A stretch of DNA of 64,000 nt, from the IMG/VR virus record IMGVR_UViG_3300043331_000728; one strand, written 5' to 3'. Source of the stretch: a virus. Of this stretch, positions 24,535 to 40,086 are shown one piece after another. A program made the position numbers and the translations under genes. Position 1 is the stretch's first letter, and each line of letters begins with the position of its first letter. A model generated the notes under the pieces. It did no database searches. It was not told where the DNA came from and worked only from the letters and a program-made list of their open reading frames with translations.

Positions 24535-24547
24535 CCCCCTGGCAGGA

Positions 24548-24928: not shown

Positions 24929-24950
24929 GCAGACATTAGAACATCCTAAC

Positions 24951-26492: not shown

Positions 26493-26566
26493 CGCCTACC
26501 GTCCTTTCGTCGCGGCCTACTCGTGACTCGCGCCAGCGTCGCTCGTTCGACGAGCAGATGAGTTCG

Positions 26567-26908: not shown

Positions 26909-27074
26909 GAACCTCTTCGAGGGTTAACCCATGGACCACTACACCCTCGTTGTACTCCTCGACCACGCCCCCCTTCTCGGTGCGCAACATGATCCGCACC
27001 TTCGTGGGCGGCGGTGGTGGCGAACCGATGATGGTCGCTTTACGATCTTCCTTCGGGACACCACCGCGAGCCAC
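26820..27074 (-). CDS. hypothetical protein
   Basis: 84-aa ORF. Confidence 0.3.
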   Translation of the reverse strand: MARGGVPKEDRKATIIGSPPPPPTKVRIMLRTEKGGVVEEYNEGVVVHGLTLEEVHAAITKALREAVEFKERVAKARTGNGGVS

Positions 27075-27973
27075 TACTCACCCCGGTTCTGTTCAGCGAT
27101 CCGCTTGATGCGTCGCGTGCTAGAGCTGGTCGGGGTAGCGATCCGCTTGTTGTCGCTCTCGATCGGGAACAGCTCGTCGGCGGCCTCGTAGAGCTTGTGG
27201 AGCTGCTGACCATGAAGGAACGCGTACAGTGACCGCTCGGCCTTGCTATAGACTAGCTCGGCCCGCAGCGGTGAGCGCTGGGCGACGTTGCGGATCAAGA
27301 ACTCTCGGAAGATCTTGGCTGGCTGATCCTTGATCTTGTCCTCCACATCTCCCGATACGAGCACACCGAGCCACTGATAGAGCCGCTGATGATCGTGTTT
27401 GTAAAACGCTCGCGCGACCGGCGCCAGCACCGGAGCCCGTGTGACGCCTCGCACCTTCTTGCGACCAACCCCGGCGATGGCAAAATCGATCGCCTCGAAG
27501 TGTTTGGTCAGGTAGGCCACCGTCTCCTGTCTGGTTGGCACTTGCAGGTGTCGGTTACCGTGCATCATCCGGTTGGCGATAGAAGCGTGAAGGTTCTCGA
27601 CGATGCCACTAGTGCCGCCTGTCTCGACCGTGAGCACATCGACCACGGAGCGCTTGATGTGGTCGTCGACCGTGCGCTGGGCCTCCTGTGACATATTGAA
27701 GGTCACAAGGAACGGAATAGGGATCTTGGCCTCAGCCACTGCCCACAGGCGATGTTGACCATCAAGGATTTCCCCGTCCGCGCCAAAGGCGATGCCTTGG
27801 TGGTTCTCCAACCACCGGCCTTCCTTCATATCCTTGGCGTACTGATTGACCTTGTGCTGCTTGAGCGGCCGGTTGTGGTGAACGTCCTTGTCGTTTTCCA
27901 GCCACTCCAAGGCTTTTTCCGGCGTGACAACGATCCGCTGTGTGCGCATGTGTCCGTTACTGTTTGACACCAT
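27074..27973 (-). CDS. ParB-like nuclease domain protein
   Basis: ParB N-terminal motif ILDGQHRLWA. Confidence 0.65.
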   Translation of the reverse strand: MVSNSNGHMRTQRIVVTPEKALEWLENDKDVHHNRPLKQHKVNQYAKDMKEGRWLENHQGIAFGADGEILDGQHRLWAVAEAKIPIPFLVTFNMSQEAQRTVDDHIKRSVVDVLTVETGGTSGIVENLHASIANRMMHGNRHLQVPTRQETVAYLTKHFEAIDFAIAGVGRKKVRGVTRAPVLAPVARAFYKHDHQRLYQWLGVLVSGDVEDKIKDQPAKIFREFLIRNVAQRSPLRAELVYSKAERSLYAFLHGQQLHKLYEAADELFPIESDNKRIATPTSSSTRRIKRIAEQNRGE

Positions 27974-28053
27974 GGCCCTCCCTGTGACGAGCAGTTTTGG
28001 AGCGAGGCTTGTACAAATACACGTCTGCCAGTGGACGTGTCAAGGGGAATTGT

Positions 28054-28145
28054 TGGCGGTGGCGGTAGGATTCGAACCTACGGTGCCTTACGGCATCACG
28101 GAGTTAGCAACCCCGCTCCTTAAGCCTCTCGGACACACCACCGCC
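28054..28145 (-). tRNA. tRNA-Ser(GCT), long variable arm
   Basis: T arm gtagg attcgaa cctac; acceptor ggcggtg/cgccacc; AC stem cgggg/ctccg loop ttgctaa; variable arm tgcc gtaa ggca. Confidence 0.6.
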
Positions 28146-28420
28146 TAGTCGGGCTGTTCGTAGACGCACCAACAACGACAGCAATGCCCATAGCATACCT
28201 CGTGGCTGCCGTCGTGACAAGCAAGGCAAATCGGAACGGTCACCTGCACGTACTGTTGGGATTTGGGGTCACGCAGTTCACGTTCGTGATCGTGAGCAGC
28301 GTCGATCGTTAGGCATGATCCACGTGAATCGTTCGGGTCCTCTGACAGCGACAACACGCCTGCACTATGTGACCGTCCGGAATGACCATCATGATCGTGC
28401 CGCGATAGACGTGATAGCAA
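28145..28420 (-). CDS. Cys/His-rich small protein (distinct arrangement)
   Basis: ICLACHDGSHEVCYGHCCRCWC. Confidence 0.3.
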   Translation of the reverse strand: MLSRLSRHDHDGHSGRSHSAGVLSLSEDPNDSRGSCLTIDAAHDHERELRDPKSQQYVQVTVPICLACHDGSHEVCYGHCCRCWCVYEQPD

Positions 28421-28478
28421 TGCTCGTGATCAGCGCTGGTGCCAGTAAGGAAAGTGGCAAGGTCATATTGTTTGGACA

Positions 28479-28790
28479 TCAGTCAACCCACCCCCTCGAC
28501 CTTAGCAGGTCTCGGATCTCGTTCGCTTCGTGCTCCTTGAGACCACTCACGATCAGGCGCAGATAGGGTCCGGTCGTTGTCTCGAACGTCAGCGTCTTGC
28601 GAGGGGTGAGCGCGTCAGGGACGGCGAAATCGGAGCCGTCACCCTCTTGCACCTCGTTCTGCATGAATGCGGCGTGGATGCGCTCGCTCAAGGTTGTGGC
28701 GGCACGCATGCCTTGCACGAAGGCCTCCTCTGGGGTCGGGCTATCACGCCGATCAGTCATGCTGGTACACGCTGGTGACGATGGAGCCAC
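28479..28790 (-). CDS. hypothetical protein
   Basis: 103-aa ORF. Confidence 0.35.
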   Translation of the reverse strand: MAPSSPACTSMTDRRDSPTPEEAFVQGMRAATTLSERIHAAFMQNEVQEGDGSDFAVPDALTPRKTLTFETTTGPYLRLIVSGLKEHEANEIRDLLRSRGWVD

Positions 28791-29154
28791 GGGTCACGAC
28801 CACTTCCACGTGATCGTCGAAGGCGGCCAGCATCACTTCTCGCAGATCGTCATCCTGAATCTTGTCGCTCAACTCGCGGATGCCCTCGGCGCCCTCGTTC
28901 TTCTTGAGCGAATAGGCGTACTCGAACTCGTCCTCGCAGACACCCTCGATCTTGAACTCGGGCTCGTTCACACCGAACACGCAGGGATCGCCGTCGTTGA
29001 ACCACGGCGTGTACTGCGTCCAGCGCACGGCCAGCACCTTCGGGTTGCGCGAGAGCCAGCCTTCCAGCCATTCCTTGACGGCTTCCTGTGAGTTGGCCTT
29101 GAGATCGGCGCGGGCTGCGGCGAATCGTTCACGCATCGCTTCGAGCTTGCTCAT
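28753..29154 (-). CDS. hypothetical protein
   Basis: start at ATG 29154 preceded by ggagga RBS inside longer ORF. Confidence 0.4.
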   Translation of the reverse strand: MSKLEAMRERFAAARADLKANSQEAVKEWLEGWLSRNPKVLAVRWTQYTPWFNDGDPCVFGVNEPEFKIEGVCEDEFEYAYSLKKNEGAEGIRELSDKIQDDDLREVMLAAFDDHVEVVVTRGSIVTSVYQHD

Positions 29155-29216
29155 ACGTGCCCATCCTCCGTGTTTAGGACAGAAACGGCTGGTGCGGTAA
29201 TCGTCACAGTTACAAG

Positions 29217-29606
29217 TCAATCCGGCACCGTGAGATCGATCGTGCGCTGCATGCGACGGACAGGCCCGCCCAGCCACGGGTACATCGGCATACCGTCGAG
29301 GTAGTCCGAGAGGGTAGGGATCTTGCCCATGTCGTCCAGTACGTGCTGCTCGCCGATGTCTCGTACCTGCACCTTGCGGCCATCGCTGTTCACGATGTAC
29401 GTCCCGAAGAGCCGCTCGGCGAGGTAGATGCCCCACGAGTTGTGGAGCAGCGCTCGATGGCGCATGTCGGGATGGTGAGACTTCGGCTCGTCGAAGAAAT
29501 CGTGGATCTCCTGATAGTCCTCGGCCTTGCCACCAAACTTCTTGACACTGACGAGAGCGTGGAGATGTGGTTTCATCCGGTCCACCTTTCCCGACCACAG
29601 TAACAC
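29217..29606 (-). CDS. hypothetical protein
   Basis: 129-aa ORF. Confidence 0.4.
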   Translation of the reverse strand: MLLWSGKVDRMKPHLHALVSVKKFGGKAEDYQEIHDFFDEPKSHHPDMRHRALLHNSWGIYLAERLFGTYIVNSDGRKVQVRDIGEQHVLDDMGKIPTLSDYLDGMPMYPWLGGPVRRMQRTIDLTVPD

Positions 29607-29763
29607 CAGAGTCCAGAAATCGGCCAGTCATGGGAGGTGGCGGTGCATCCACCTGAGATCTTACGGATGAGGTCGCTGACACTCTGAGCGTGCTCGTACT
29701 CATTCACGCTCAGAAAGATGCCGTACGCTCGACGAAGATAGTCGATCGATTGACTGTCCTTGG

Positions 29764-29998
29764 TCACTTGATCCTCCGGGCATTGGCCTTGATTTCGCTG
29801 ACGTAGACATCGCCCATCTCACCCTCGGGCACCATCGGGGTCACCACGTCACAAAACCAACGAGCGAATTTTTTGTCGTCGTCGGCCTGCCACTTCTTGA
29901 GGACATACCACGTCCAGGATCCGTCGTGGGATTGCCAGACCTCGTAGGCGTGTTCACGATCCACGGTCTTAGCGGCGGGGTTCTTCAACGAGTCCTCC
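29764..29998 (-). CDS. hypothetical protein (TTG start after GGAGGA)
   Basis: ORF 29764..30045 but upstream codons form terminator hairpin. Confidence 0.3.
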
Positions 29999-30011
29999 TC
30001 GGAAAAAACGA

Positions 30012-30050
30012 AAAGCGCGGGCAGGGGGTGCAAACCCCCCAGCACCTACT
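30012..30050 (-). terminator. rho-independent terminator after tRNA block
   Basis: minus strand gggggtttgcaccccc hairpin then ttttcgtttttt. Confidence 0.4.
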
Positions 30051-30324
30051 CTCCCAGTCGGGTTGTTCTGCCACAAGCACTCCGGAGCCAGCGTCCCAGC
30101 TCCATCAACGTGCCTGACGGGATTTTACCCGTAAGCCGCCGCCTACTAGCCATTAGTTTTATAGGCTACCAGCGACCGCGTGCCTCCCCGTGAGCTTGCC
30201 AAATCTCACGAGTACTATCCGGCATTACCCTTCCGGTACCATCAGACCTCCCCAGGCATGGTCAGGGAGTGCCTTTCCCCCCGTAGGACGGGGTACTTGT
30301 TCAGCCACCGCGCTTCTCGAACTT

Positions 30325-30401
30325 TGGGGTGAACGACGGGAGTCGAACCCGCATATCCTTGGTTCACAACCAAGTGCCTTGACCGTTAGGCTACGTTCAC
30401 C
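30325..30401 (-). tRNA. tRNA-His(GTG) with encoded G-1
   Basis: T arm acggg agtcgaa cccgc; AC stem cttgg/ccaag loop ttgtgaa; extra 5' G (plus c30401) and discriminator C. Confidence 0.65.
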
Positions 30402-30402
30402 A

Positions 30403-30480
30403 TGGTCTGGGTAGGAGGATTTGAACCTCCGACTTCCCCCTTCCGAAGAGGGCTCGCTAACCAGGCTGCGCTATACCCAG
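30403..30480 (-). tRNA. tRNA-Pro(CGG)
   Basis: T arm ggagg atttgaa cctcc; acceptor ctgggta/tacccag; loop ttcggaa. Confidence 0.6.
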
Positions 30481-30710
30481 ACGAAAGAACAACTGGCTGG
30501 TGGGTATCTGATATTGCTTCGCGGCTAACATTCAGGGCATTTGGCAGCCACCCACTCAAAGTTGCCGTCAGAGCGCGTTCCCTGTGGTTCTCTGCCAATC
30601 CCCACAAGGTTCCCACACACGCGTAGCCTTAAGCTCCCCTGCTCTCACGCTTCGTTGACTTGCGTCTCGGCGCTACCAGCAGGCTCAACGCCCCAGCCAG
30701 ATTAAAACTA

Positions 30711-30806
30711 TGGCGGAGAGGGCAAGATTTGAACTCGCATAGCGGGGGTGCTCCCCGCCTAGCCGGTTTTCAAGACCGGAGCCTTACCAGGTTAGGCTAC
30801 CTCTCC
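30711..30806 (-). tRNA. tRNA-Ser(TGA), long variable arm
   Basis: T arm gcaag atttgaa ctcgc; acceptor ggagagg/cctctcc; AC stem ccggt/accgg loop cttgaaa; variable hairpin gcgggg agca ccccgc. Confidence 0.6.
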
Positions 30807-30823
30807 GCGTGATTCTCTTTTCA

Positions 30824-30899
30824 TGGAGGCGGCTGTGAGGATCGAACTCACCAAAAAAGGCTTTGCAGGCCCCCGCGTTCACCAGCTCGCTCAGCCGCC
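30824..30899 (-). tRNA. tRNA-Cys(GCA), tentative
   Basis: T arm gtgag gatcgaa ctcac; acceptor ggcggct/agccgcc; loop ctgcaaa. Confidence 0.5.
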
Positions 30900-30936: not shown

Positions 30937-31419
30937 CTAGCACCCCTCCGGCGTGTCGTCAACGATTTTAGCGCTTCTCTCTTTATACGCTAGGCCAGCC
31001 ATGAGCATGTGCGGTTTATTGTCAATGAAATGCATCATGTAATTACAGCGTCGACACAGGAGACCCCGGAATGCGCCAGTGTAGTGATCGTGGTCGATAA
31101 ATAACGTCCCCCGGAACGGGCATATAGCGCAATGACCGTCTTGCTGTTTCAGTGCCTCTTCGTACTCGCCAGGCTTTAATCCATATTTGTTGCGGCGCCG
31201 TCTCTCGATGGCGGCCTGTCGGTTATTTTTGTACCACGTCTTACCGACAGCTGAATTAACGCACGATTTGCATAGTCCGCGCACATACATCGGTCGATCG
31301 GTGTGGACACACTTAGCCCTGACCCTGTTGGGGTCTCGGTATAACTCGCGATGATAACAGGGCTTGCACCAGCCCTTCGCGCAACGAGGTCGTTCTGGAT
31401 GACATTTAATCTCGGTCAA
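30937..31419 (-). CDS. recombination endonuclease VII (T4 gp49-like)
   Basis: GHCAICPF...LFIDHDHYTGAFRGLLCRRCNYMMHF. Confidence 0.8.
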   Translation of the reverse strand: MTEIKCHPERPRCAKGWCKPCYHRELYRDPNRVRAKCVHTDRPMYVRGLCKSCVNSAVGKTWYKNNRQAAIERRRRNKYGLKPGEYEEALKQQDGHCAICPFRGTLFIDHDHYTGAFRGLLCRRCNYMMHFIDNKPHMLMAGLAYKERSAKIVDDTPEGC

Positions 31420-31431
31420 TTCACCAATAAA

Positions 31432-32100
31432 CTACCAGAAACGTCTCCTGACATCGAGCAGGAAGTCGTTGACGCGACCGGGTTGCGGTGTGTGGTCGCA
31501 CTCGGCGGCGGCCAGGATTACCATCGCTTCCCACGAGCTGGTGGTGTCGATCACTTCACCCTTGGTCATACGGCCCTCTCGCCAGCGCTTGAGGATGTCG
31601 TACTCGACGCCGACCTGACTCATGTCGGACAGCAGCACGCCATCTTTGAGCAGATAGTAGCCCTGAACCAGGGTGCGCAGGTAGGCCACTGCATACTTGT
31701 GGCCGCGCTGATCCTTGTCATCCAGGAACTTCTTGCGCTGGTTCTGACCGTAGCCGATGAACGAGTCGCGCACGCCGATAGGATTCCAGATGCAGGGAAA
31801 CAGGGAGCGCACTGCGTCTCCATCTGGAGAGGACGAAACTAGAGGCGCTGTAAAAACCTCCAACACTGAGGGGTTGCAGTAGAGCGCCAATTCCAGGAAG
31901 TGGCGCAACTCCCAGCTGGTGTCGTCGTCCTTCTCGCCTTTGCTCTTGTCGGCCTCGACCCAGCCTGTGTCCTTGAGGCGCGCATTCAGCGAGAGCACGC
32001 TACTGGTACGGTGCAAGAACACCCCCCGATAGTCGTAGTCACTGGTCGGAGTCGCCAGACCATGTGCCCGTGATCCCACGAGGACTTTCAGGATCTGCAT
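31432..32100 (-). CDS. polymerase-beta-like nucleotidyltransferase domain protein
   Basis: minimal NTase motif GSRAHGLATPTSDYDYRGVF (GS...DxD). Confidence 0.5.
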   Translation of the reverse strand: MQILKVLVGSRAHGLATPTSDYDYRGVFLHRTSSVLSLNARLKDTGWVEADKSKGEKDDDTSWELRHFLELALYCNPSVLEVFTAPLVSSSPDGDAVRSLFPCIWNPIGVRDSFIGYGQNQRKKFLDDKDQRGHKYAVAYLRTLVQGYYLLKDGVLLSDMSQVGVEYDILKRWREGRMTKGEVIDTTSSWEAMVILAAAECDHTPQPGRVNDFLLDVRRRFW

Positions 32101-32350
32101 AGATCGGTTCGTATCCTTTCAGGCTGTAGAGGCAGATAAAGCATGGGTGTCTGCCACCAATGTGGCCGCGAGCCTTCCTGGAGCATATGCAGCAGCGGTC
32201 GTAGGTCGTGTCCTTACAGAAGTGGCGACAGGCGTGGAGCCGCAGGAACTGCTTGCAGTCACGAAACAATATCTCTACGCTGCGGAGTCCGGCCTGCTCC
32301 TGCGTGTGATAGAACCACAGCTTGACGCCGAACCGTCTTACTCCTGGCAC
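32039..32350 (-). CDS. Cys-rich family member
   Basis: HACRHFCKDTTYDRCCICSRK...HPCFICL. Confidence 0.55.
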   Translation of the reverse strand: MPGVRRFGVKLWFYHTQEQAGLRSVEILFRDCKQFLRLHACRHFCKDTTYDRCCICSRKARGHIGGRHPCFICLYSLKGYEPIYADPESPRGITGTWSGDSDQ

Positions 32351-32571
32351 AGCTTCGGATTCTTGGTGCAGTACAGCTCGTTGCTCAGACGGTCGTGAGC
32401 GTCCTGCACGAGCCAGAGCCGACGTTGTAGCGACTCGATGTCGCTGCGCTGCCGCTCTATCTTGTTGTCCCTCATCTTTATCATATCGTCCTCAGACGAG
32501 GGGCACTTGGGTCCACCACTGCACCCGACCAGCAGGCTAGCGCAGAGACTGGCGAGCAGGCGAGTCATCAT
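32338..32571 (-). CDS. putative lipoprotein
   Basis: signal peptide with lipobox LVGCSG. Confidence 0.45.
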   Translation of the reverse strand: MMTRLLASLCASLLVGCSGGPKCPSSEDDMIKMRDNKIERQRSDIESLQRRLWLVQDAHDRLSNELYCTKNPKLCQE

Positions 32572-32788
32572 CGACGCACACTCCGACGATTACGTTTTGG
32601 TGTGAGTAGGTGTCGATGTTGATGGCTTTGCGCATTCGCTCACACTTGTCGAATGTCGCAAATGGTCCGTGAGATACCGGGAAATAGACGCCGTGCCCGT
32701 TCGAGGACCATGTGACGAACCACCATGCGCTAACCGCGAGCGCGAGCGCGCACTTCCTCCCAGCTCCACTTCTTGAGGATCGAGCCAT
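32537..32788 (-). CDS. hypothetical protein
   Basis: 83-aa ORF. Confidence 0.3.
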   Translation of the reverse strand: MARSSRSGAGRKCALALAVSAWWFVTWSSNGHGVYFPVSHGPFATFDKCERMRKAINIDTYSHQNVIVGVCVDDDSPARQSLR

Positions 32789-34121
32789 CCCGGTAGACCT
32801 CCTCCAGTAGATCTTGGCCGATGGCGCCTTGGCCCATCGTCTTGTAGCCGGTGCCGTGTCTGAGCAGCACGAGCTTGCCGCCTTTGCTGACCTTACCCGG
32901 GTCGGTCACGGGGTCCTTGAAGACCGGAATCCACTCGTCGCCCCGCTCGGCGTTGGCGATCTGGATGGCCGAGCACTTGAAGGCGAACTTCTGGGTGTCC
33001 CGGTTGACCTTCTGAAGGAGGCCACCGCCAGAGCCGAAGGCGATGTTGTCCACACTCCAGTGGCGCAGCTTCATCTCCGTCAGGATGGCGCCGATCATGT
33101 CGTAGTCGATACCGTCACCCTGAATCACTCGTACTTTGTCGTGGAGGACTCGGTAGCCTTTGGCGTTGACGGTGGTTCCGAAGGCAGCTCCCAGGATGTC
33201 GAGGACTTCGGGGACGACCACAACAGGATTACCACTGTCAGGACGAACAACGAGAACACCGTCACGAGCAATAACAGCATCCCTCAGCTCCTTGCCCCAC
33301 AGATCCTTGCAGGCCCGATAGATGTCGTAGCTGTCACTGACGACGGCCACCAGCCCTGTTGGGAACTGTTGCAGCATGTTCAGGTAGGCGTTGACCTCGT
33401 TCTCCTTGCCCCAAGAAGTGATCGTAGAGTGTTCGGCAGCCGGGATGCTGAACCCAGCCATACCAGCTCCGTAGAACTCTGTGGCTGCCTCGAAGCCGAC
33501 CATGGTGTCAGTGCCCATAAACGACACGAGGTGCGCCATGTCGCCGATGCCCGCCGACTCCACCGAGGTTGAGCCACGATCCCCGAAATCGTGGACCTTG
33601 AAGTCCACAGGCGCCCTATCGGGATCGCCAGTTTCCTTCGAGTATTGCTCGATCAACCGGTACATCTCACGGCTCTGAGTGGCGATCGTGGATGGATACC
33701 ACACCTTGGAGAGCAGAGTCTCCAGGTAATTCGTGAGCCACGGCAGCTCGGGGTCCGTGTTCTCGATGGTCATGAGAACATTGCTGGTCGGGATCACGGA
33801 GCCCTCGGGCACGGCCTTGATCGAGACCGGCAGGCGCCCCCCGTGGTTCTTGAGGATGAGCTGCCAGCCACGTTCGTTGAACAGATCGGCGGTGCCGAAG
33901 TGCTTGGCGAACCGGTCCTTGGCGTAATCGATGTGGTCCTGAGTGACCACCCGCCCTGACAGGTAGCGCATCAGGTAATACTGCAAGCCGAAGAACACGG
34001 TGTTCGGCCAGCGTCCGCCCCGGGACTCGAAGTACGAGTACACCCGCTTGGTGCCAGGTGGGTATTGCTTCCAGTGACTGATCTTGTAGCTGTCCGTCAA
34101 CATCACGATGTTGTGGTGCAT
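32730..34121 (-). CDS. nadV: nicotinamide phosphoribosyltransferase NadV/NAMPT
   Basis: N-terminal MLTDSYK, full-length (463 aa) NAMPT-like. Confidence 0.85.
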   Translation of the reverse strand: MHHNIVMLTDSYKISHWKQYPPGTKRVYSYFESRGGRWPNTVFFGLQYYLMRYLSGRVVTQDHIDYAKDRFAKHFGTADLFNERGWQLILKNHGGRLPVSIKAVPEGSVIPTSNVLMTIENTDPELPWLTNYLETLLSKVWYPSTIATQSREMYRLIEQYSKETGDPDRAPVDFKVHDFGDRGSTSVESAGIGDMAHLVSFMGTDTMVGFEAATEFYGAGMAGFSIPAAEHSTITSWGKENEVNAYLNMLQQFPTGLVAVVSDSYDIYRACKDLWGKELRDAVIARDGVLVVRPDSGNPVVVVPEVLDILGAAFGTTVNAKGYRVLHDKVRVIQGDGIDYDMIGAILTEMKLRHWSVDNIAFGSGGGLLQKVNRDTQKFAFKCSAIQIANAERGDEWIPVFKDPVTDPGKVSKGGKLVLLRHGTGYKTMGQGAIGQDLLEEVYRDGSILKKWSWEEVRARARG

Positions 34122-34469
34122 TCAGTTCTCCAGTTCCTCGTGCCGCGCGTAATTGCGCGGGTTAGGGCCATGGTAGCAGATCTGGCACAGCCCGTATCCG
34201 GCCCGATCGTAACAAAGACAGCACAGGGCAAAACCGTGCTTGCCCTGAGCCGGCGCAAGACAGAAATGGTTGCATTGCTGCAAGTGGATCTCGTTGGTCA
34301 TCACGATCCTGCCGGCCTCGGTGTATGTATCGGGTGTATACTCATGCACCCTCACCGTCAGATTCATCCCGAAATTGTTGTGCTTTGCATCGACATACTT
34401 CTTGGTGACAACACCTGTGACCCGTCGCTGGAAAGCAGCCACACCCTTGAGAATACTCCTGCGGCTCAT
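34122..34469 (-). CDS. Cys-rich family member, inserted between nadV and nadM
   Basis: QCNHFCLAPAQGKHGFALCCLCYDRAGYGLCQICYHG; ATGA-coupled start. Confidence 0.55.
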   Translation of the reverse strand: MSRRSILKGVAAFQRRVTGVVTKKYVDAKHNNFGMNLTVRVHEYTPDTYTEAGRIVMTNEIHLQQCNHFCLAPAQGKHGFALCCLCYDRAGYGLCQICYHGPNPRNYARHEELEN

Positions 34470-35347
34470 TTGCTGAGATGGCTGATGAGCGCCAGCGCGA
34501 GCGGAAGGTGATGGGGCACGATCCGTTGTGGCAGGTACTCCATACCGACCCACTCGCAAGCCACGATGTCGTCGGCTGCCTTGGGATGGCCGTACACGTA
34601 GTCGGCTACAAAGAACGCGCTCATCATTTTGTCGGTATCGTCCCGATACCGCCAGTCTGGGATGCGGAACGACCCTACATAGCGCAGGTTTCCCACTTCG
34701 AGGCCTGTCTCCTCTAACACTTCACGTTTGGCGGCATGTTCAAGGGTAAGATCCCGAACATCCACAAATCCACCGATGAATCCCCCAGACTCACGCTTGT
34801 CGTGCAACTTGCGGCACAGGAGCACGGAACCCTCTTTTTGCACGATCGCTACGTCTACCACCTGGTAGCTGATGGGGAAACGATTGTAGCAGGCCCAGAT
34901 TACGCCGTGTCGGAACGACGGGTTATTGTCCACCACTTGTCCGAGGTGATCCCGCACCTCTGTAGCGCTTGGCACCTTAACGGTCTCGATCTCGACCACT
35001 TTATAAGAACCGTGATAGTGGGGGAAGAAAGCCTGACGGCCGCCGTAGAGCGTGATATCGAAATCGGTGGGGAAGATATCCCTGACGATGCTGTCAAGCT
35101 GGGACGACCATGCTTTGTCATCCGGCATATCGTAGATCGGTGCCGTGAGAACCCGAGGGAAGTAGGTGTTCATCATCTTGGCTCGGATCTCGTAGTCCAA
35201 CGCGTTCTTGCGGCCGAGCCTGTTCGGCGCGCACCCGAGCAACACGAGCACCTTACCGTGTCGACTGGTCACCTTCTCGATCAGGTCGATGTGGCCCGGA
35301 TGTGGCTGGTCGATCTGAAACCGTCCCACGATGACGCCGACACTCAT
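34466..35347 (-). CDS. nadM: bifunctional NMN adenylyltransferase / Nudix ADP-ribose pyrophosphatase (NadM-Nudix)
   Basis: GRFQIDQPHPGH ((H/T)xGH NTase motif) plus Nudix box GGFVDVRDLTLEHAAKREVLEETGLEV. Confidence 0.8.
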   Translation of the reverse strand: MSVGVIVGRFQIDQPHPGHIDLIEKVTSRHGKVLVLLGCAPNRLGRKNALDYEIRAKMMNTYFPRVLTAPIYDMPDDKAWSSQLDSIVRDIFPTDFDITLYGGRQAFFPHYHGSYKVVEIETVKVPSATEVRDHLGQVVDNNPSFRHGVIWACYNRFPISYQVVDVAIVQKEGSVLLCRKLHDKRESGGFIGGFVDVRDLTLEHAAKREVLEETGLEVGNLRYVGSFRIPDWRYRDDTDKMMSAFFVADYVYGHPKAADDIVACEWVGMEYLPQRIVPHHLPLALALISHLSK

Positions 35348-35401
35348 GATCTTCGATCTCCACCCTGATCGCGCTGAATGTTGAAAACGATTTTTCCATG
35401 T

Positions 35402-36082
35402 TTAACACGAGCAGGAAAAAAAGGTGGCCTTCTTCTCCTCGACCTTGACGTGATAAATCGCCTCCCACGCTTCCCAGAAACGCTCCGCATGTTCTGGAAA
35501 TTCGTCCCGCCAACTCTCGGCGCCTCTTTGTACTTCATAACTCTCACTGTCGAGCCATCGCTGGGCAGCCCCCATCAGTTGCTCGACGGGGATGTGAAGC
35601 TCGGCAGCGATCTCAACCACAACGGCTCGCGCTTGCGCTTCCGTCATACTGAAATCGGGATGCGCCCATTCGTGACGCAGCGACTTGATGGAGCCTGGAT
35701 CCAGGAACATCCAGAATCGCTCCCTCGGCTGCACGGGTGCCGTCAGAAAGGGATCAACGATGCCGCTCGTCTTGGCTGCTTTGGCGCTGACCACGTTCTC
35801 CCCGGTCAGCCCGATCCGTTGACCAGGCTGCAAGGTCTCGAACGAAATCACAGGCGCCACCGCTACGTGAATGGCGTCCCGCTTCTGGTTTGTGGTGATG
35901 AGACGGCCGATGCCGATGTCAGACATGACGCCGCCATCCTTTCTTTTGGTACGGTATAGATTTGTCGGTATGAAAGGCCCAACAGATCGCGCATCGGCCG
36001 CTTCCACGACAGGAACAGCACTGGCTATGGATAACTCGACCACCGCTCGTGTACTCTTCTTGACTCCGACAGAAGTGACCAC
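35402..36082 (-). CDS. hypothetical protein
   Basis: 226-aa ORF. Confidence 0.35.
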   Translation of the reverse strand: MVTSVGVKKSTRAVVELSIASAVPVVEAADARSVGPFIPTNLYRTKRKDGGVMSDIGIGRLITTNQKRDAIHVAVAPVISFETLQPGQRIGLTGENVVSAKAAKTSGIVDPFLTAPVQPRERFWMFLDPGSIKSLRHEWAHPDFSMTEAQARAVVVEIAAELHIPVEQLMGAAQRWLDSESYEVQRGAESWRDEFPEHAERFWEAWEAIYHVKVEEKKATFFSCSC

Positions 36083-36191
36083 ACACCAGAATATGGACGT
36101 AGTTGGACTGGCTGCTCAGCGCCAGCTCGTCACCCCATCGAATGTAGCAATCGGCTGGTCCACGCGTTACATCGAACCTGATCCTCAACAC
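35919..36191 (-). CDS. Cys-rich family member
   Basis: VCGHFCRSQEEYTSGGRVIHSQCCSCRGSGRCAICW. Confidence 0.55.
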   Translation of the reverse strand: MLRIRFDVTRGPADCYIRWGDELALSSQSNYVHILVCGHFCRSQEEYTSGGRVIHSQCCSCRGSGRCAICWAFHTDKSIPYQKKGWRRHV

Positions 36192-36194
36192 GAC

Positions 36195-37343
36195 TCATTC
36201 CTTGTCCTTGATGTGAAACGTGATGCCGTGCGGTGCCACTACGTCGGACGTGATGCACCAAACCTCGTTGTGTGTGTGCGGTGTCGGCCACCCGTCGTTC
36301 GGGTAGCCATCCGTCAGCCAGACAGTGGGCAGTTCCGGCACGCGCACCTTAGCTGCGTTCAGGAACGAGGTTCCTCCACGGAACTTCTTGGCGGTTTCTA
36401 GTACCGTCCTCATGTTAGCCACTGGCACCAACGGGCTCACTTCGCCATCAAAGATGGCACACACGGAACCTTTCAGCTCGGGTGTGCGCAGGATGCAGGC
36501 GAGGAAATCGTCCAGGTCTTCCTGAGGGACCGAGCCGGAGGCATCCACGAGAAAGGCCGCTCCCTTGCCATACATGGCCGACTGGCCGGGCAACATGTGA
36601 AAGGTGCGGTTCTCTCGCCGCCATGAACGCGCTCGTTCCGTGCGCTGCTGTGTGCGGATCAGGTACTGAATAGTGCGCCGAATCCACGGCTTCGGCGGCG
36701 GAAGATTCTCGATGTCTCTCATGCCGCCGTGACCATCCCCAGCGGTCTTGGTGCGCATATCCACGGCGTCACGAAAATCCTTGTCGCCCGCACGAATATG
36801 CACAGAGGCCGAACACGCCTTAGCGTACGAGGCCCCGCTACCATCGAACTTGCCCTGTTCGAGGCTGCCGCATCCTACCAACACATGTTCTTCCGGCAAG
36901 AAATCGTAGGCTGTCTCGGGCGGCATCGGTGGAATGGTGCCACCGTACTTGCTCGTAAGCCGATCGAAGATTACGCACTGGAACGTTTCGAAGCCAGGCA
37001 CCTTCTGGATGCCCTCTTCGATGACCTTGTAATCGGCGGCTCCACACTCGTGAATCGCCGCATCTGTCACGGCATTCCATGGTCTGGGCTGTCGATCCTT
37101 GCAGCGTCCGATATGGTTCGAGATGAAGTGTGCGGCCTCGTGACGCAGGATGTGGTCCTTGGTGCGCTGGTCGGCGCCCATATAGGCATCGCCTACGACG
37201 ATGTAGAGCTTGCCTTTAAGGATGTATGTGGCAGCGGTGCGAATGTCTCGATCGTAGCGGAAGTCGTCCGCCTCGGCGAGGAAGATCCGCACCGCTGGTG
37301 TGATGTAGTCCTCATGCGGAACCTCAGCGACCAGGCGTGTCAC
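36195..37343 (-). CDS. VWA-domain protein with N-terminal HExxH metallopeptidase-like module
   Basis: HEAAHF; MIDAS LVDASGSV; partner of upstream MoxR ATPase. Confidence 0.6.
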   Translation of the reverse strand: MTRLVAEVPHEDYITPAVRIFLAEADDFRYDRDIRTAATYILKGKLYIVVGDAYMGADQRTKDHILRHEAAHFISNHIGRCKDRQPRPWNAVTDAAIHECGAADYKVIEEGIQKVPGFETFQCVIFDRLTSKYGGTIPPMPPETAYDFLPEEHVLVGCGSLEQGKFDGSGASYAKACSASVHIRAGDKDFRDAVDMRTKTAGDGHGGMRDIENLPPPKPWIRRTIQYLIRTQQRTERARSWRRENRTFHMLPGQSAMYGKGAAFLVDASGSVPQEDLDDFLACILRTPELKGSVCAIFDGEVSPLVPVANMRTVLETAKKFRGGTSFLNAAKVRVPELPTVWLTDGYPNDGWPTPHTHNEVWCITSDVVAPHGITFHIKDKE

Positions 37344-38446
37344 TTCTTGGCTCCGGTATCCACGCCCGGAGTGCCGCCCTTGGCACGCTGTTCTTTCATG
37401 AACGCCTTGATTTTGTCAGCGAACACCTTGGCCCCCTGTTCCTTGAACTCTGGTCGATGGATCGAGTGCAGGGTCTCCGGCGACTCGAACAGCATGACCA
37501 GAATCCGGGTCAGTTCCTCGGTCGGGTCCTGTTCGTTGGCCCGTTCCGTGATGGCCACGATCACTTCAGACATGTCCTGGAACTCACCAGCGTTCAGGAC
37601 ATCGAGGATGTGGGCCGCAAAGTCGGTCGGCGACACCATAGCCGCCCACTCTTTCGTGGGGTTCGGCGTCCGGTTCTTGAGCGCCTGCAACACCGCTCCG
37701 GCCTGCGCTTGCGGGAACAGCCCGTGAACCACCAGCTTCCGCACGTGCTCGCACTCCCAGAACTCCGACAGCGTGAGCCAGCGGCGCAGCTTGTGCAGCG
37801 ATCCCGGCGCCTTGGGCCGGGCCGGGAACTTGATGGCCGGAAGATCCCGAAACAGCTCCTCTGCGATGTGCTGCACCGGCTTCAGATCAGAACGTCCCGC
37901 AATGTTCATGCCTTCCATGGGATATGGGAGGAAGAGCATACGAGCAACGAGGGGTTCTGGCAAGAGCCGCCCGTCCGGCTCGTTCATGGCCGCCACGATG
38001 GGCACCTTGTGGCTGATGCGTGTGTGCCTGAGCCGACGCTCGTCCGGGTTGAAAAGCGTCAGGAAGCAGGTGAGCACCGAGTCTGGTGCCTTGTCCAGCT
38101 CGTCGACAATGATGCCCCACTTCTTCTTGGGGTTACCCTGCTCGTCGTAATTCGACTTGTCGAGCAGATCTGGGCGGATATTGGCCGGCTGCGTGAAATA
38201 CAGCTTGTCGCCTTCCCGGTACGGCCAGCCAGCGATGTCCTCAGGAAGGTCCGTCTGCGGGTTGAAGACCATGATGTCCTCCAGCACCATGCCCATGTTG
38301 CGGTAGAGGGCGTAGAGGTCATGCGTCTTGCCGTACTGCGGTGGCCCGATGATGCACGGCACCCCGCGATGGGGGTCGGCCAGAGCCGTTACCACGATCC
38401 AACGAAACGCGTCCTCTGGGGTCCACTCCGCTGCTGGCTTGCTCAT
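37340..38446 (-). CDS. MoxR-family AAA+ ATPase
   Basis: Walker A IIGPPQYGKT, Walker B IIVDELDKA. Confidence 0.75.
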   Translation of the reverse strand: MSKPAAEWTPEDAFRWIVVTALADPHRGVPCIIGPPQYGKTHDLYALYRNMGMVLEDIMVFNPQTDLPEDIAGWPYREGDKLYFTQPANIRPDLLDKSNYDEQGNPKKKWGIIVDELDKAPDSVLTCFLTLFNPDERRLRHTRISHKVPIVAAMNEPDGRLLPEPLVARMLFLPYPMEGMNIAGRSDLKPVQHIAEELFRDLPAIKFPARPKAPGSLHKLRRWLTLSEFWECEHVRKLVVHGLFPQAQAGAVLQALKNRTPNPTKEWAAMVSPTDFAAHILDVLNAGEFQDMSEVIVAITERANEQDPTEELTRILVMLFESPETLHSIHRPEFKEQGAKVFADKIKAFMKEQRAKGGTPGVDTGAKK

Positions 38447-38491
38447 CTCCCCTCCTCCCGTGGTTAGGATGCCCGAACGTTGTGTGTTACG

Positions 38492-38818
38492 TCAACGACG
38501 GAATGCGCGACAAATACGACAGTAATGCTCGCCCGATAGAGGAAGCGTACACACGCAACACGTTATGGCCCGATCTGCACAAAAATGGCCACAATGAGCC
38601 AAAAACACGAACATTTCACGATCATAATCGTAGATGCTCACCCACACGTGAGGGGCGAGAGCGTCGAGTTGAGAGACTTGAGATATGCCCGCCCTTATCG
38701 TCTTCGGCTGAGTTCCTTGAAGTGCTCCAATTCCTTGAGCCGAGCCGCTTCCTTCTCGGCCTGACTGATGATCGGTTCGACCTTCACCAGCTCGCCGGTC
38801 TTGTCGTCGACTTTCCAT
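38492..38818 (-). CDS. Cys-rich family member
   Basis: AHCGHFCADRAITCCVCTLPLSGEHYCRIC. Confidence 0.55.
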   Translation of the reverse strand: MESRRQDRRAGEGRTDHQSGREGSGSAQGIGALQGTQPKTIRAGISQVSQLDALAPHVWVSIYDYDREMFVFLAHCGHFCADRAITCCVCTLPLSGEHYCRICRAFRR

Positions 38819-38831: not shown

Positions 38832-39059
38832 TCATATCGTCTCCTTGGTTCGCCGCACCAGGTCGATACCCTTCTTGCGCAAGCGGGTCACCGACGCATG
38901 GATGGCATGCGTTGATGTCTCTAGTCTTGCAGCAATTTCCTTAGCGGTATAGCCCGCATTCCAGAGCGCGATCAACTCGTCCCACTTCTCTTGAGGCCAG
39001 GACTTCATTGCTTTATCTGAGGCAAATTTGGAGGCAATGTAAAATCGCATAGTGCGCAC
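38832..39059 (-). CDS. GcrA-like HTH DNA-binding protein
   Basis: W..EKWDELIALWNAGYTAKEIAARL...HAIHASVTRLRKKG resembles GcrA N-terminal HTH. Confidence 0.45.
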   Translation of the reverse strand: MRTMRFYIASKFASDKAMKSWPQEKWDELIALWNAGYTAKEIAARLETSTHAIHASVTRLRKKGIDLVRRTKETI

Positions 39060-39358
39060 TTGCGCACAAGTTTATCCATATCTCTGCACGCACAACAAGT
39101 CCCAAGGTGTTTTACGCCGAAGTTCCAGCATATGTGTCCACACCTCATGAGCAACATATACGCATGCAATTTAGAAGAGTGTTCCCATCGGCAGATCCAT
39201 TCTAGCGCGTTATCATGCTTGACGACCCCAAAGCGTGGAGCGGATGGATCACTCATTTCGTCACACTCCAGCAGACGCGACAATGATCCTGTGAAGGCAA
39301 TTGTGAGCAGCGACAACAATTGAATAACGTCGACTCGTTGCGGCAAAAATGCGAGCAA
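39005..39358 (-). CDS. Cys-rich family member
   Basis: MRCGHICWNFGVKHLGTCCACRDMDKLVRKCALCD. Confidence 0.55.
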   Translation of the reverse strand: MLAFLPQRVDVIQLLSLLTIAFTGSLSRLLECDEMSDPSAPRFGVVKHDNALEWICRWEHSSKLHAYMLLMRCGHICWNFGVKHLGTCCACRDMDKLVRKCALCDFTLPPNLPQIKQ

Positions 39359-39735: not shown

Positions 39736-40086
39736 CTACCTCAACTGAGTACCCTGCCTTTTCAAGGATGGTCCTTGCTTCTCGTTGGATGCGATTACCT
39801 TTTGCTGTTGTGTTCTGCCGCCTTGACAGCACACGTCGCACAGCGAATCTACCGTGGCGCACAGACAACAACGGTCCATATGTGCCACGTTGTGACCGCT
39901 CCGACAGAAGTGCCCGCACGCAGACAACGATAGCAGAATATTCCAGTTACCGCCGATGAAGATCGAACCCTCTCGATTACCTGGATTAGTGGGGCCACCA
40001 TGGAAGAAGCCGGCGGCTGCTTCACCCCATCCGACGATCCCGTACCTATCTAGCCCTTGCCACCACCGAGTAATCTTGAACTTCAT
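39736..40086 (-). CDS. Cys-rich family member
   Basis: ACGHFCRSGHNVAHMDRCCLCATVDSLCDVCC. Confidence 0.55.
   Translation of the reverse strand: MKFKITRWWQGLDRYGIVGWGEAAAGFFHGGPTNPGNREGSIFIGGNWNILLSLSACGHFCRSGHNVAHMDRCCLCATVDSLCDVCCQGGRTQQQKVIASNEKQGPSLKRQGTQLR

What the first reader, a model, noticed from the sequence alone, without database searches (positions are those of the whole stretch)
32730..35347. Phage NAD+ salvage pair NadV + NadM-Nudix, split by a Cys-family gene
The full-length NAMPT homologue (32730-34121) and the bifunctional NMNAT/Nudix protein (34466-35347) together rebuild NAD+ from nicotinamide and ADP-ribose. This phage-encoded two-enzyme pathway has been reported to counter NAD-depleting defence systems. 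A Cys-family copy (34122-34469) sits between the two genes, with ATGA coupling.
Basis: established knowledge. Interest (0 to 1): 0.55.

Follow-up and report, generated by a model that had tools for sequence, protein, structure and literature searches.

The report
Phage NAD+ salvage operon, NARP2 type

Summary
Three tightly packed minus-strand genes are present: NadM-like (34466-35347, 293 aa), a 115-aa Cys-rich ORF (34122-34469, ATGA overlap) and NadV (32730-34121, 463 aa).

- **NadV** is a clear NAMPT. It scores 599 bits on NF006629 (cut-off 405) and is 52% identical to human NAMPT. Sixteen of 17 checked functional residues are kept, including all catalytic ones.
- **The NadM-like protein** is a divergent short form of bifunctional NMNAT/Nudix. 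It is far below the NCBIfam cut-offs. A family profile and a confident AlphaFold model (pLDDT 93.6) both hit the two solved NadM-Nudix enzymes first. The HxGH, SxTxxR and RExxEE motifs are conserved.
- **Distribution:** this short form occurs in 229 IMG/VR contigs. NadV follows it on the same strand in 74 of the 83 loci examined.
- **Classification:** the pair is a new member of the published NARP2 pathway. NARP2 needs PRPP, and no Prs gene is in the window, so ADP-ribose can only feed in through host enzymes.
- **The Cys gene** is not part of the pathway. It is absent from this junction in the closest relative and in the other 82 loci. It belongs to an undescribed family with 8 invariant Cys/His residues, 22 copies in the window, and no Pfam, PHROG or deposited-phage match.

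Enzyme activities and a counter-defence role remain untested.

The parts
34466..35347 (-). NadM-like gene: short-form bifunctional NMN adenylyltransferase / Nudix hydrolase (293 aa)
   Evidence: ORF. PF00293 at 61 bits and PF01467 at 21.2 bits. The family profile hits 2QJT at 4.6e-26 and 2QJO at 1.1e-18 over both domains. AlphaFold pLDDT is 93.6. The top Foldseek hits are 2QJT/2R5W/2QJO. hhalign against Vibrio phage nt-1 NatV gives probability 98.9%, E 2e-17.
35291..35302 (-). Codons for H16-P-G-H19, the (H/T)xGH nucleotidyltransferase motif, inside GRFQ-IDQP-HPGH (2 residues longer than the canonical GRFQPxHxGH)
   Evidence: H16 is kept in 34/37 and H19 in 36/37 family members; R9 and F10 are invariant. 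The alignment to 2QJT shows the 2-residue gap.
34952..34969 (-). Codons for S127-A-T-E-V-R132, the SxTxxR (ISST-type) second NMNAT motif
   Evidence: R132 is invariant, S127 is kept in 31/37 and T129 in 31/37. It aligns to NATEFR of 2QJT and SSTAIR of 2QJO.
34700..34774 (-). Codons for the Nudix box G192-G-F-V-D-V-R-D199-L-T-L-E203-H-A-A-K-R208-E-V-L-E212-E213-T-G-L216
   Evidence: G192, G193, R208, E209, E212 and E213 are invariant in 37 homologues; D199 is kept in 34/37 and E203 in 36/37. The box is one residue longer than the canonical Gx5Ex7REUxEExGU, shown as a 1-residue gap against 2QJT and NudC.
34122..34469 (-). Cys-family gene (115 aa) between NadM and NadV; its start overlaps the NadM stop (ATGA) and its stop abuts the NadV ATG
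   Evidence: Sequence. It carries all 8 invariant ligands of the family: C66, H68, C70, C83, C84, C86, C95, C98. No Pfam, NCBIfam or PHROG match. JGI called the same 115-aa product.
34176..34274 (-). Core Cys/His motif CNHFC-x12-CCLC-x8-CQIC of the intervening gene
   Evidence: Regex scan and alignments A2/A3.
32730..34121 (-). NadV gene: nicotinamide phosphoribosyltransferase (NAMPT), 463 aa
   Evidence: NF006629 at 599 bits against a cut-off of 405. PF18127 plus PF04095. phrog_448 at 5.8e-158. Human NAMPT structures at 4e-146 and 52% identity.
33429..33431 (-). Codon for His231 of NadV, equivalent to human NAMPT His247 (the autophosphorylated catalytic histidine)
   Evidence: Residue mapping from the HMMER alignment to 3DGR. 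The local sequence PAAEHSTIT is identical to human NAMPT.

Best explanation
This is a compact three-gene transcription and translation unit on the minus strand of a large phage genome. Its first and third genes form a NARP2-type NAD+ salvage pathway. NadV (NAMPT) condenses nicotinamide with PRPP to give NMN. The N-terminal domain of the NadM-like protein adenylylates NMN with ATP to give NAD+. Its C-terminal Nudix domain most likely cleaves ADP-ribose, or a related NAD-derived dinucleotide, into AMP and ribose-5-phosphate. Host PRPP synthetase can then return the ribose-5-phosphate to PRPP. The net effect is to raise or restore NAD+ in the infected cell, which in characterised phages overcomes NAD+-depleting defences such as Thoeris, DSR and SIR2-HerA. 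The middle gene is not a pathway component. It is one of 22 copies of a lineage-specific, fast-diverging family of small Cys/His-rich (probably two-zinc) proteins that fill gaps between conserved genes in this phage lineage. Here it has landed in the NadM-NadV junction and is co-translated with the pair. What is shown: gene structure, homology, motif conservation, fold, and conserved NadM-then-NadV synteny. What is inferred: enzyme activities, Nudix substrate, dependence on host PRPP, the counter-defence role, and zinc binding by the Cys protein.
For: **NadV.** It is full length on the NAMPT equivalog model, scoring 599 bits against a cut-off of 405. It is 52% identical to human NAMPT, and 16 of the 17 functional residues I mapped are identical (from the alignment).

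**NadM-like.** A profile of 37 family members finds the two solved bifunctional NadM-Nudix enzymes as its best PDB hits, with both domains aligned (2QJT 4.6e-26, 2QJO 1.1e-18). Archaeal NMNATs appear among the next hits. The AlphaFold model has pLDDT 93.6, and its top six Foldseek hits are 2QJT, 2R5W and 2QJO. hhalign to the NatV homologue of the KVP40-like phage nt-1 gives 98.9% probability over 277 columns. HxGH, SxTxxR and RExxEE are invariant or nearly so.

**Linkage.** In 74 of 83 loci that carry this NadM form, NadV follows on the same strand; two more have the reverse order. About 44 of the 74 have gaps under 120 bp.

**Phage context.** The window holds 13 tRNAs, RtcB, RNR, ThyX, DnaB, EndoVII and PHROG-only families. 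The closest homologues are in Tunturiibacter phage Tunturi_5 and in uncultured phage genomes of 460-640 kb.

**Published function.** The NARP2 function and substrates are described in bioRxiv 10.1101/2024.02.11.579819 and PMC13464706.

**Cys gene is not a pathway part.** The closest relative, L003 (57% NadM identity), has NadM and NadV abutting with no gene between them, yet carries 11 Cys copies elsewhere in 12.9 kb. No other locus has the motif.
Against: - The NadM-like protein scores only about 45 bits on the NCBIfam NadM-Nudix equivalogs, whose cut-offs are 354-449 bits.
- It has a 2-residue insertion inside the GRFQ...HxGH motif and lacks roughly 45 residues between the two domains.
- Its Nudix box is one residue longer than the canon, with Asp in place of the first Glu.
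- By sequence, its Nudix domain is at least as close to NudC-type NADH pyrophosphatases as to the NadM Nudix. ADP-ribose specificity is therefore not established.
- No PRPP synthetase is encoded in the window.
- Nothing here shows expression or activity, or that the host carries NAD+-depleting defences.
Confidence: 0.8

Rival explanations
1. The pair is a general auxiliary metabolic module. It boosts NAD+ for phage replication (NAD-dependent enzymes, high nucleotide turnover in a large phage) rather than countering a specific defence.
For: NARP2 raises NAD+ even in cells that have no defence system, because it starts from PRPP. NadV alone is found in more than 2,000 deposited phage records across many hosts. 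The window is rich in nucleotide metabolism genes, including RNR, ThyX and a deoxyribosyltransferase-like ORF.
Against: The same pathway from KVP40 abolished Thoeris and DSR2 defence. The window also carries other conflict-type genes, such as a NADAR-domain ORF and an RNA-repair set. The two roles are not mutually exclusive.
Confidence: 0.35
2. The Nudix domain is not an ADP-ribose pyrophosphatase. It would instead act on NADH/NAD+ or NAD-capped RNA (NudC-like), or serve only as a ligand-sensing domain. ADP-ribose would then not be recycled by this protein.
For: The best single-sequence PDB hits of the Nudix half are E. coli NudC (1.2e-7, against 1.4e-6 for 2QJT). Foldseek aligns it to NudC at 26-28% identity, compared with 17-19% for the full-length alignments to 2QJT/2QJO. 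The Nudix box has non-canonical spacing.
Against: With the family profile, the NadM-Nudix enzymes come first for both domains. The NudC signature region downstream of the box is not conserved; the query has RIPDWRYRDD where NudC has SQPWPFPQS. RExxEE is intact, so a purely regulatory, inactive domain is unlikely.
Confidence: 0.2
3. The Cys-family protein is a functional third subunit or regulator of the NAD+ pathway, placed between the two enzymes for stoichiometric co-translation.
For: It has tight coupling on both sides (ATGA and TGAATG). It lies inside an otherwise highly conserved gene pair.
Against: It is absent from the junction in the closest relative and in the other 82 loci with this NadM form. 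The same family fills many unrelated intergenic slots, with 22 copies in the window. Other phages have unrelated inserts at the same junction, including GIY-YIG, HNH and other ORFs.
Confidence: 0.07
4. The NadM-like protein has lost NMNAT activity or adenylylates a different substrate, so the pair does not complete NAD+ synthesis on its own.
For: It fails every NCBIfam NMNAT cut-off, and PF01467 is only at threshold (21.2 against 21.0 bits). There is a 2-residue insertion next to the catalytic HxGH.
Against: The insertion and the motifs are conserved across hundreds of homologues; 811 proteins scored at E<=1e-5. The model is confident. The gene is almost always next to NadV, which is hard to explain unless it uses NadV's product.
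Confidence: 0.08

Closest known systems
NARP2 (NAD+ reconstitution pathway 2) of Vibrio phage KVP40: Nampt (NadV) plus bifunctional Nmnat/Nudix (NatV)
   Same: The same two enzyme types sit in a phage genome. NadV is of the PRPP-using NAMPT kind, and the second protein has an N-terminal NMNAT domain and a C-terminal Nudix domain. The family is homologous to the NatV of the KVP40-like phage nt-1 over both domains. No Adps/Prs partner is present, as expected for NARP2 rather than NARP1.
   Different: The NatV counterpart here is about 50 aa shorter (293 against 343 aa). It is only about 23% identical, lacks the inter-domain segment, and has altered spacing in two motifs. The two genes are adjacent, with a third, unrelated gene between them. 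In nt-1 no NadV is annotated within about 4 kb of NatV.
Bacterial bifunctional NadM-Nudix (Francisella tularensis FTT0386-type, PDB 2QJT/2R5W; Synechocystis slr0787, PDB 2QJO)
   Same: Same two-domain architecture and fold. These are the best profile and structure matches. The GRFQ...HxGH, SxTxxR and RExxEE motifs are shared.
   Different: Sequence identity is 17-19%. The query scores far below the NCBIfam PRK05379 cut-offs. There is a 2-residue insertion before HxGH, roughly 45 residues missing between domains, and a 1-residue longer Nudix box. A family-specific DWRYR signature replaces D-x-P-x-R-S-x-R-G-R. The relative domain orientation in the model differs (overall rmsd about 12 Å).
NAMPT / NadV (human NAMPT, PDB 3DGR/2GVG; NCBIfam NF006629)
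   Same: 52% identity, full-length alignment, and 16 of 17 checked functional residues identical, including the phospho-histidine. Above the equivalog cut-off.
   Different: It lacks the roughly 10-residue loop after residue 34 that the mammalian enzyme has. Ser275 of human NAMPT is Ala259 here.
NARP1 (Adps + Namat)
   Same: Namat is a homologue of NAMPT, and both pathways end in NAD+.
   Different: NARP1 requires a Prs-like Adps and uses ADPR-PP. No Prs/Adps homologue is in the window, and the partner gene here is an NMNAT. This is therefore not NARP1.

Membership tests
NAMPT / NadV (NCBIfam NF006629, Pfam NAMPT_N + NAPRTase) | Whole-protein score above the curated equivalog cut-off, full-length match | tested here: met
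   599.4 bits against a cut-off of 405; residues 1-462 match profile positions 3-462 of 465.
NAMPT / NadV (NCBIfam NF006629, Pfam NAMPT_N + NAPRTase) | N-terminal NAMPT domain plus type II phosphoribosyltransferase barrel | tested here: met
   PF18127 at 132.7 bits (residues 4-101) and PF04095 at 193.3 bits (residues 174-444).
NAMPT / NadV (NCBIfam NF006629, Pfam NAMPT_N + NAPRTase) | Catalytic and substrate-binding residues of human NAMPT (Y18, F193, R196, D219, H247, D279, R311, D313, G353, D354, G383, G384, R392) | tested here: met
   All are identical at the aligned positions Y12, F179, R182, D205, H231, D263, R293, D295, G335, D336, G365, G366 and R374. Only S275 changes, to A259. The list of functional residues comes from my own knowledge of the NAMPT structures.
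NAMPT / NadV (NCBIfam NF006629, Pfam NAMPT_N + NAPRTase) | Nicotinamide + PRPP -> NMN activity | not testable with these tools
   Needs an enzyme assay.
Bifunctional NadM-Nudix (NCBIfam PRK05379 equivalogs; PDB 2QJT/2QJO) | Score above the curated equivalog cut-offs | tested here: not met
   The best score is 45.4 bits against cut-offs of 354-449. It should not be filed as an equivalog of these models.
Bifunctional NadM-Nudix (NCBIfam PRK05379 equivalogs; PDB 2QJT/2QJO) | Two-domain architecture: N-terminal NMNAT nucleotidyltransferase fold and C-terminal Nudix fold in one chain | tested here: met
   The profile aligns both domains to 2QJT and 2QJO. The AlphaFold model has pLDDT 93.6, and the top Foldseek hits 2QJT/2R5W/2QJO cover about 350 columns.
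Bifunctional NadM-Nudix (NCBIfam PRK05379 equivalogs; PDB 2QJT/2QJO) | NMNAT motifs GRFQPxHxGH and SxTxxR | tested here: met
   GRFQ-IDQP-HPGH and SATEVR are present. R9, F10 and R132 are invariant; H16 and H19 are kept in at least 34/37. The first motif carries a family-wide 2-residue insertion.
Bifunctional NadM-Nudix (NCBIfam PRK05379 equivalogs; PDB 2QJT/2QJO) | Canonical Nudix box Gx5Ex7REUxEExGU | tested here: inconclusive
   REVLEETGL is intact, and R208, E209, E212 and E213 are invariant. The upstream half is G193-x5-D199-x8-R208, which is one residue too long with Asp in place of Glu.
Bifunctional NadM-Nudix (NCBIfam PRK05379 equivalogs; PDB 2QJT/2QJO) | ADP-ribose pyrophosphatase specificity of the Nudix domain | not testable with these tools
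   Sequence similarity to NudC is as strong as to the NadM Nudix. A substrate panel is needed.
NARP2 phage counter-defence pathway | Nampt-clade phosphoribosyltransferase and an Nmnat homologue encoded by the same phage | tested here: met
   Both are in one operon. Phage context is shown.
NARP2 phage counter-defence pathway | No Adps (Prs-like) partner, which distinguishes it from NARP1 | tested here: met
   tblastn of E. coli Prs against the window gives a best E-value of 0.072. This covers only the 64-kb window, not the whole genome.
NARP2 phage counter-defence pathway | Restores NAD+ and rescues phage from Thoeris, DSR or SIR2-type defence | not testable with these tools
   Requires infection assays and NAD+ measurements.

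The most novel reading that the evidence does not exclude
The intervening gene belongs to an undescribed, hyper-expanded family of hypervariable mini-proteins of about 60-115 aa. Only 7 Cys and 1 His are invariant, enough for two zinc sites. This phage lineage may use the family as a diversified arsenal of binders or inhibitors of host or defence proteins, or the genes may spread selfishly between conserved genes. On this reading, the copy wedged into the NARP2 operon is co-expressed with NAD+ reconstitution as part of the same counter-defence programme. The evidence does not exclude this: there are 22 copies in 64 kb, arrays in four other metagenomic contigs, no match in Pfam, PHROGs, 50,697 deposited phages or the literature, and positions that differ between relatives.
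Probability: 0.15. Interest if true: 0.7.

Novelty: new member of a known kind. Interest (0 to 1): 0.3.

Why it matters
This adds one more instance of NARP2-type NAD+ salvage, so it teaches little new about mechanism. Three things are useful.

- A shorter, divergent NMNAT/Nudix form is common in large environmental phages (229 IMG/VR contigs). Curated models miss it, so surveys of NAD+ counter-defence that rely on KVP40-like queries or NCBIfam cut-offs may undercount NARP2.
- The NadM-NadV junction is a recurrent landing site for extra genes such as homing-endonuclease-like ORFs. In this lineage the extra gene is a Cys-family copy.
- That Cys family is uncharacterised and strikingly expanded. 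It is the more interesting lead from this region.

Tried and rejected
- **Megablast of 32500-35600 against 50,697 phage records:** no match. The phage has no close deposited relative.
- **The look-up of encoding contigs for the window's own NadM protein:** not on record.
- **Promoter/terminator scan of 31000-38600:** not above shuffles (1 promoter-like site against 3.1 expected; 8 terminator-like sites against 4.6 ± 2.4). The hairpin inside the Cys ORF (34224-34247) is not taken as a terminator.
- **Cys protein family searches:** no Pfam, NCBIfam or PHROG family. Scanning 32 family members against Pfam gave only sub-threshold RING-finger hits in 2-3 members (best E 0.043), so I rejected RING membership.
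- **Weak TAT-signal hit on MSRRSILKG** (E 0.24): rejected, because no hydrophobic h-region follows.
- **Word-indexed homologue search with the family alignment:** found only the window's own two proteins.
- **AlphaFold of the Cys protein:** poor model (pLDDT 61.6). Foldseek then gave nothing with E<=0.001, so no fold is assigned.
- **tblastn of two Cys copies against deposited phages at E<=1:** no match.
- **IMG/VR pattern scan:** 20 hits, none with the full protein motif, although the same pattern finds 3 of the 22 window copies.
- **Literature search for 'CGHFC':** nothing relevant.
- **Flanking DNA of the 22 copies:** no shared motif seen by eye. All-against-all BLASTP showed no recent duplicates and no clear positional orthologues with L003.
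- **Prs/Adps search in the window:** negative, which rules out NARP1.
- **NARP3 (NadR + PnuC):** considered and rejected, because the enzymes differ.
Full report
**1. The observation**

- The NadM-like gene runs 35347->34466 (293 aa).
- The Cys-rich ORF runs 34469->34122 (115 aa). Its ATG overlaps the NadM stop codon (ATGA).
- NadV runs 34121->32730 (463 aa). Its ATG follows the Cys ORF's TGA directly (TGAATG).

A longer TTG-initiated reading of the Cys ORF, to 34559, would lie inside NadM. JGI's own gene call for this contig is the 115-aa form (P0121). An internal Met35 would give a protein of more typical family length, so the true start is not settled. A simple promoter/terminator scan found nothing above chance between the genes. 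The three genes therefore look like one translationally coupled unit.

**2. Context**

The window is phage DNA from a large, uncultured phage.
- It holds 13 tRNA genes.
- It encodes RtcB, a ribonucleotide reductase, an exonuclease and a DNA methylase.
- It also encodes RlaP and endonuclease VII, plus ThyX, a DnaB-like helicase and a NADAR-domain protein.
- Several ORFs match only PHROG families of unknown function.

There is no nucleotide-level relative among 50,697 deposited phages. The NadM-like protein's closest deposited homologues are in Tunturiibacter phage Tunturi_5 (309 kb, 40% identity) and in uncultured phage genomes of 460-640 kb.

**3. NadV**

This is an unambiguous NAMPT.
- It scores 599 bits on the NCBIfam equivalog NF006629 (cut-off 405) over its whole length.
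- It has the NAMPT_N and NAPRTase domains and matches phrog_448.
- It aligns end to end with human NAMPT structures (E 4e-146) at 52% identity.

I mapped 17 functional residues of human NAMPT through that alignment. Sixteen are identical, including the stacking pair Tyr18/Phe193, Asp219, the phospho-histidine His247 (His231 here), Arg196, Arg311, Arg392 and the GDG and GGG loops. Only Ser275 differs, becoming Ala.

**4. The NadM-like protein**

On its own the sequence gives only weak hits. Nudix scores 61 bits, the cytidylyltransferase-like domain is just at threshold (21.2 against 21.0 bits), and the NCBIfam NadM-Nudix equivalogs score about 45 bits against cut-offs of 354-449. It is nevertheless a member of a large, coherent family. 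811 proteins match at E<=1e-5, most about 290-320 aa long, and JGI names many of them 'bifunctional NMN adenylyltransferase/nudix hydrolase'.

Three lines of evidence support the two-domain assignment.
- **Profile search.** A profile of 37 members (A1) finds the two solved bifunctional NadM-Nudix enzymes as its best PDB matches, with both domains aligned: Francisella 2QJT/2R5W at 4.6e-26 and Synechocystis 2QJO at 1.1e-18. Archaeal NMNATs and assorted Nudix hydrolases follow.
- **Structure.** An AlphaFold model built on that alignment is confident (pLDDT 93.6, pTM 0.84). Its top six Foldseek hits in the PDB are again 2QJT, 2R5W and 2QJO. The Nudix half alone then matches NudC, RppH and others.
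- **Phage homologue.** hhalign of the family against the annotated NatV of Vibrio phage nt-1, a KVP40-like phage, gives 98.9% probability and E 2e-17 over 277 columns.

The catalytic signatures are present and conserved across the family.
- GRFQ...H16-x-G-H19 is present.
- S127-x-T-x-x-R132 is present.
- The Nudix helix R208-E-x-x-E212-E213 is present.

The family differs from canonical NadM-Nudix in four ways.
- It has a two-residue insertion between GRFQ and HxGH.
- About 45 residues between the domains are missing, which accounts for 293 aa against 340-350 aa.
- Its Nudix box is one residue longer than Gx5Ex7REUxEExGU, with Asp199 where the first Glu is expected.
- It has a family-specific D-W-R-Y-R signature downstream.

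I therefore call it a short-form NadM-Nudix. It has the same architecture and probably the same chemistry, but it is not an equivalog by curated thresholds. The Nudix substrate cannot be read from sequence. NudC-type NADH pyrophosphatases are as similar to this domain as the NadM Nudix domains are.

**5. Linkage of the two enzymes**

A scan of IMG/VR with the family alignment found 229 viral contigs encoding this short form, most of them 100-440 kb. I examined 83 loci: 80 from IMG/VR, plus Tunturi_5, LR756502 and the closest metagenomic relative.
- NadV follows NadM on the same strand in 74 loci and precedes it in 2.
- In 7 loci NadV is not within the locus sequence held (up to about 4 kb on each side).
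- Of the 74, about 44 have an estimated gap under 120 bp.

This tight, recurrent coupling is the strongest non-biochemical argument that the NadM-like protein uses NadV's product.

**6. What the pathway is**

The pair corresponds to NARP2, defined as Nampt plus Nmnat from Vibrio phage KVP40. NARP2 makes NAD+ from nicotinamide, PRPP and ATP. It overcame type I Thoeris and DSR2 when co-expressed with them, and type I Thoeris when knocked into phage SBSphiJ. It was found in about 1.1% of sequenced phages (bioRxiv 10.1101/2024.02.11.579819; summarised again in PMC13464706).

ADP-ribose is the direct substrate of NARP1, not NARP2. In NARP2 it could contribute only if the Nudix domain splits it to ribose-5-phosphate and a PRPP synthetase then acts.
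- The window has no Prs/Adps homologue (best tblastn E 0.072). This also argues against NARP1.
- Five related phage loci do carry a Prs gene right after NadV.
- NARP3 (NadR + PnuC) is a different enzyme set.

Whether the selective value here is counter-defence or general NAD+ supply cannot be decided from sequence.

**7. The intervening Cys-family gene**

The 115-aa product has no Pfam, NCBIfam or PHROG match. It does carry a motif repeated through the window: C-x-H-[FILWYM]-C, then 8-25 residues, C-C-x-C, then 8-25 residues, C-x-x-C. There are 22 copies in 64 kb, 21 on the minus strand and one on the plus strand, against none in 50 shuffles.

In alignments of 32 or 22 members, only these seven Cys and one His are invariant, and mean column identity is 15-17%. 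Eight ligands are enough for two zinc sites, but that is an inference. The nearest paralogue of the junction copy is only 49% identical over 37 residues, so the insertion is not a recent duplication.

The closest relative found is a 63-kb Logan contig (L003) with 57% NadM identity. It shares the backbone AAA-ATPase, VWA, NadM, NadV and RlaP. There NadM and NadV abut directly and no gene lies between them. L003 still has 11 Cys copies in 12.9 kb, in other gaps of the same backbone. None of the other loci carrying this NadM form contains the motif at all.

About 16 other phages also have 400-1500 bp inserted at the same NadM-NadV junction, but with unrelated ORFs. These include a GIY-YIG-like and an HNH-like endonuclease. 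In four loci (L048, L050, L051, L075) NadV itself is interrupted by an endonuclease-like ORF.

The Cys gene is therefore best read as a lineage-specific passenger in a junction that tolerates insertions, not as a pathway component.

**8. How rare the Cys family is**

- A full HMMER search of 1.84 billion representative proteins found 71 matches at E<=1e-3. Nearly all are 60-105 aa, and the roughly 30 I inspected show the same motif.
- Contigs carrying three of them show arrays again: 3 copies in 1 kb, 7 in 4.7 kb, and 3 in 2.5 kb next to DnaB.
- There is no match in deposited phages.
- There is no true match in an IMG/VR pattern scan.
- There is nothing in the literature search.
- The AlphaFold model is unreliable (pLDDT 61.6) and gives no fold match.

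Its function is unknown. I record it as the main thing noticed in passing.

**9. Verdict**

The pair is a new member of a known kind (NARP2), with a divergent short-form NMNAT/Nudix that curated models miss. The only unusual feature is the Cys-family gene wedged between the enzymes, which reflects the behaviour of that gene family rather than the NAD+ pathway. Interest for this finding is modest at 0.3. The Cys family itself deserves its own follow-up.

Noticed in passing
window, 22 sites: 6790-6873(+); 17743-17844, 20412-20486, 20605-20682, 24340-24417, 32132-32230, 34176-34274, 35982-36083, 38510-38593, 39047-39142, 39271-39357, 39829-39918, 48437-48553, 48673-48783, 48983-49078, 49192-49314, 49398-49541, 50266-50358, 52698-52826, 52946-53038, 53160-53246, 54029-54118 (all -): A hyper-expanded family of small ORFs (about 65-115 aa) shares only 7 Cys and 1 His (C-x-H-F-C...CC-x-C...C-x-x-C). 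The copies are often start/stop-overlapped with their neighbours. The family has no Pfam or PHROG match, no match in deposited phages and nothing in the literature. Arrays also occur in L003 (11 copies), L088 (7), L087 (3) and L089 (3).
   Followed up: partly
window 45962-46471 (-): A 169-aa ORF carries a NADAR domain (PF08719, 5e-22). This is another NAD/ADP-ribose-linked gene in the same phage, possibly an ADP-ribosylation-reversing counter-defence enzyme.
   Followed up: no
window 2638-3825 (+), 20952-21761 (-), 31432-32100 (-), tRNAs 18427-30899 (-): An RNA repair and supply kit is present: RtcB ligase, an Rv2179c-like 3'-5' exoribonuclease, an RlaP nucleotidyltransferase directly downstream of the NAD operon, and 13 tRNA genes. 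This suggests defence against host anticodon nucleases.
   Followed up: no
window 36195-38446 (-); L003 3145-5396: A MoxR-like AAA ATPase (368 aa) and a VWA/DUF2201 protein (382 aa) lie upstream of NadM. The same pair is conserved in that position in the closest relative, so the syntenic backbone is AAA-VWA-NadM-NadV-RlaP.
   Followed up: partly
L014 3627-4241, L028 4959-5933, L048 5613-6293, L050 5731-6279 (L051 is the same arrangement as L050), L075 5635-6372: In other phages the NadM-NadV junction holds GIY-YIG-like or HNH-like endonuclease ORFs. In four loci (L048, L050, L051, L075) NadV itself is split by an endonuclease-like ORF, possibly an intron or intein. The junction is a hot spot for mobile insertions.
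   Followed up: partly
L010/L011 7978-8802, L017 6525-7355, L041 6864-7760, L014 6661-7350: Some related phages encode a PRPP synthetase homologue (37-42% identical to E. coli Prs) immediately after NadV. This makes a three-gene NadM-NadV-Prs module that is absent from the window.
   Followed up: no
window 32338-32571 (-): A 77-aa ORF just downstream of NadV begins MMTRLLASLCASLLVGCSGG, a lipoprotein signal with an LVGC lipobox. It has no family match.
   Followed up: no
window 30937-31419 (-): An endonuclease VII-domain protein (PF02945, 4.6e-15) has an extra Cys-rich N-terminal half. It sits between RlaP and a tRNA cluster and may be a homing-type nuclease.
   Followed up: no
window 35402-35926 (-): The ORF directly upstream of NadM matches only unknown-function phrog_11912 (2e-35). 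Its likely ATG start at 35926 overlaps the stop of another Cys-family gene (35919-36191). It is absent at this position in L003.
   Followed up: no
window 51342-52088 (-) and 62559-63113 (-): One ORF is DprA/SLOG-like (PF02481 at 5e-12, LDcluster4 at 1e-6). Another is nucleoside 2-deoxyribosyltransferase-like (below the Pfam cut-off). Both are nucleotide-related and of unclear role.
   Followed up: no
L015 4893-5339: In one related phage the gene inserted between NadM and NadV is a separate MutT-like Nudix hydrolase.
   Followed up: no
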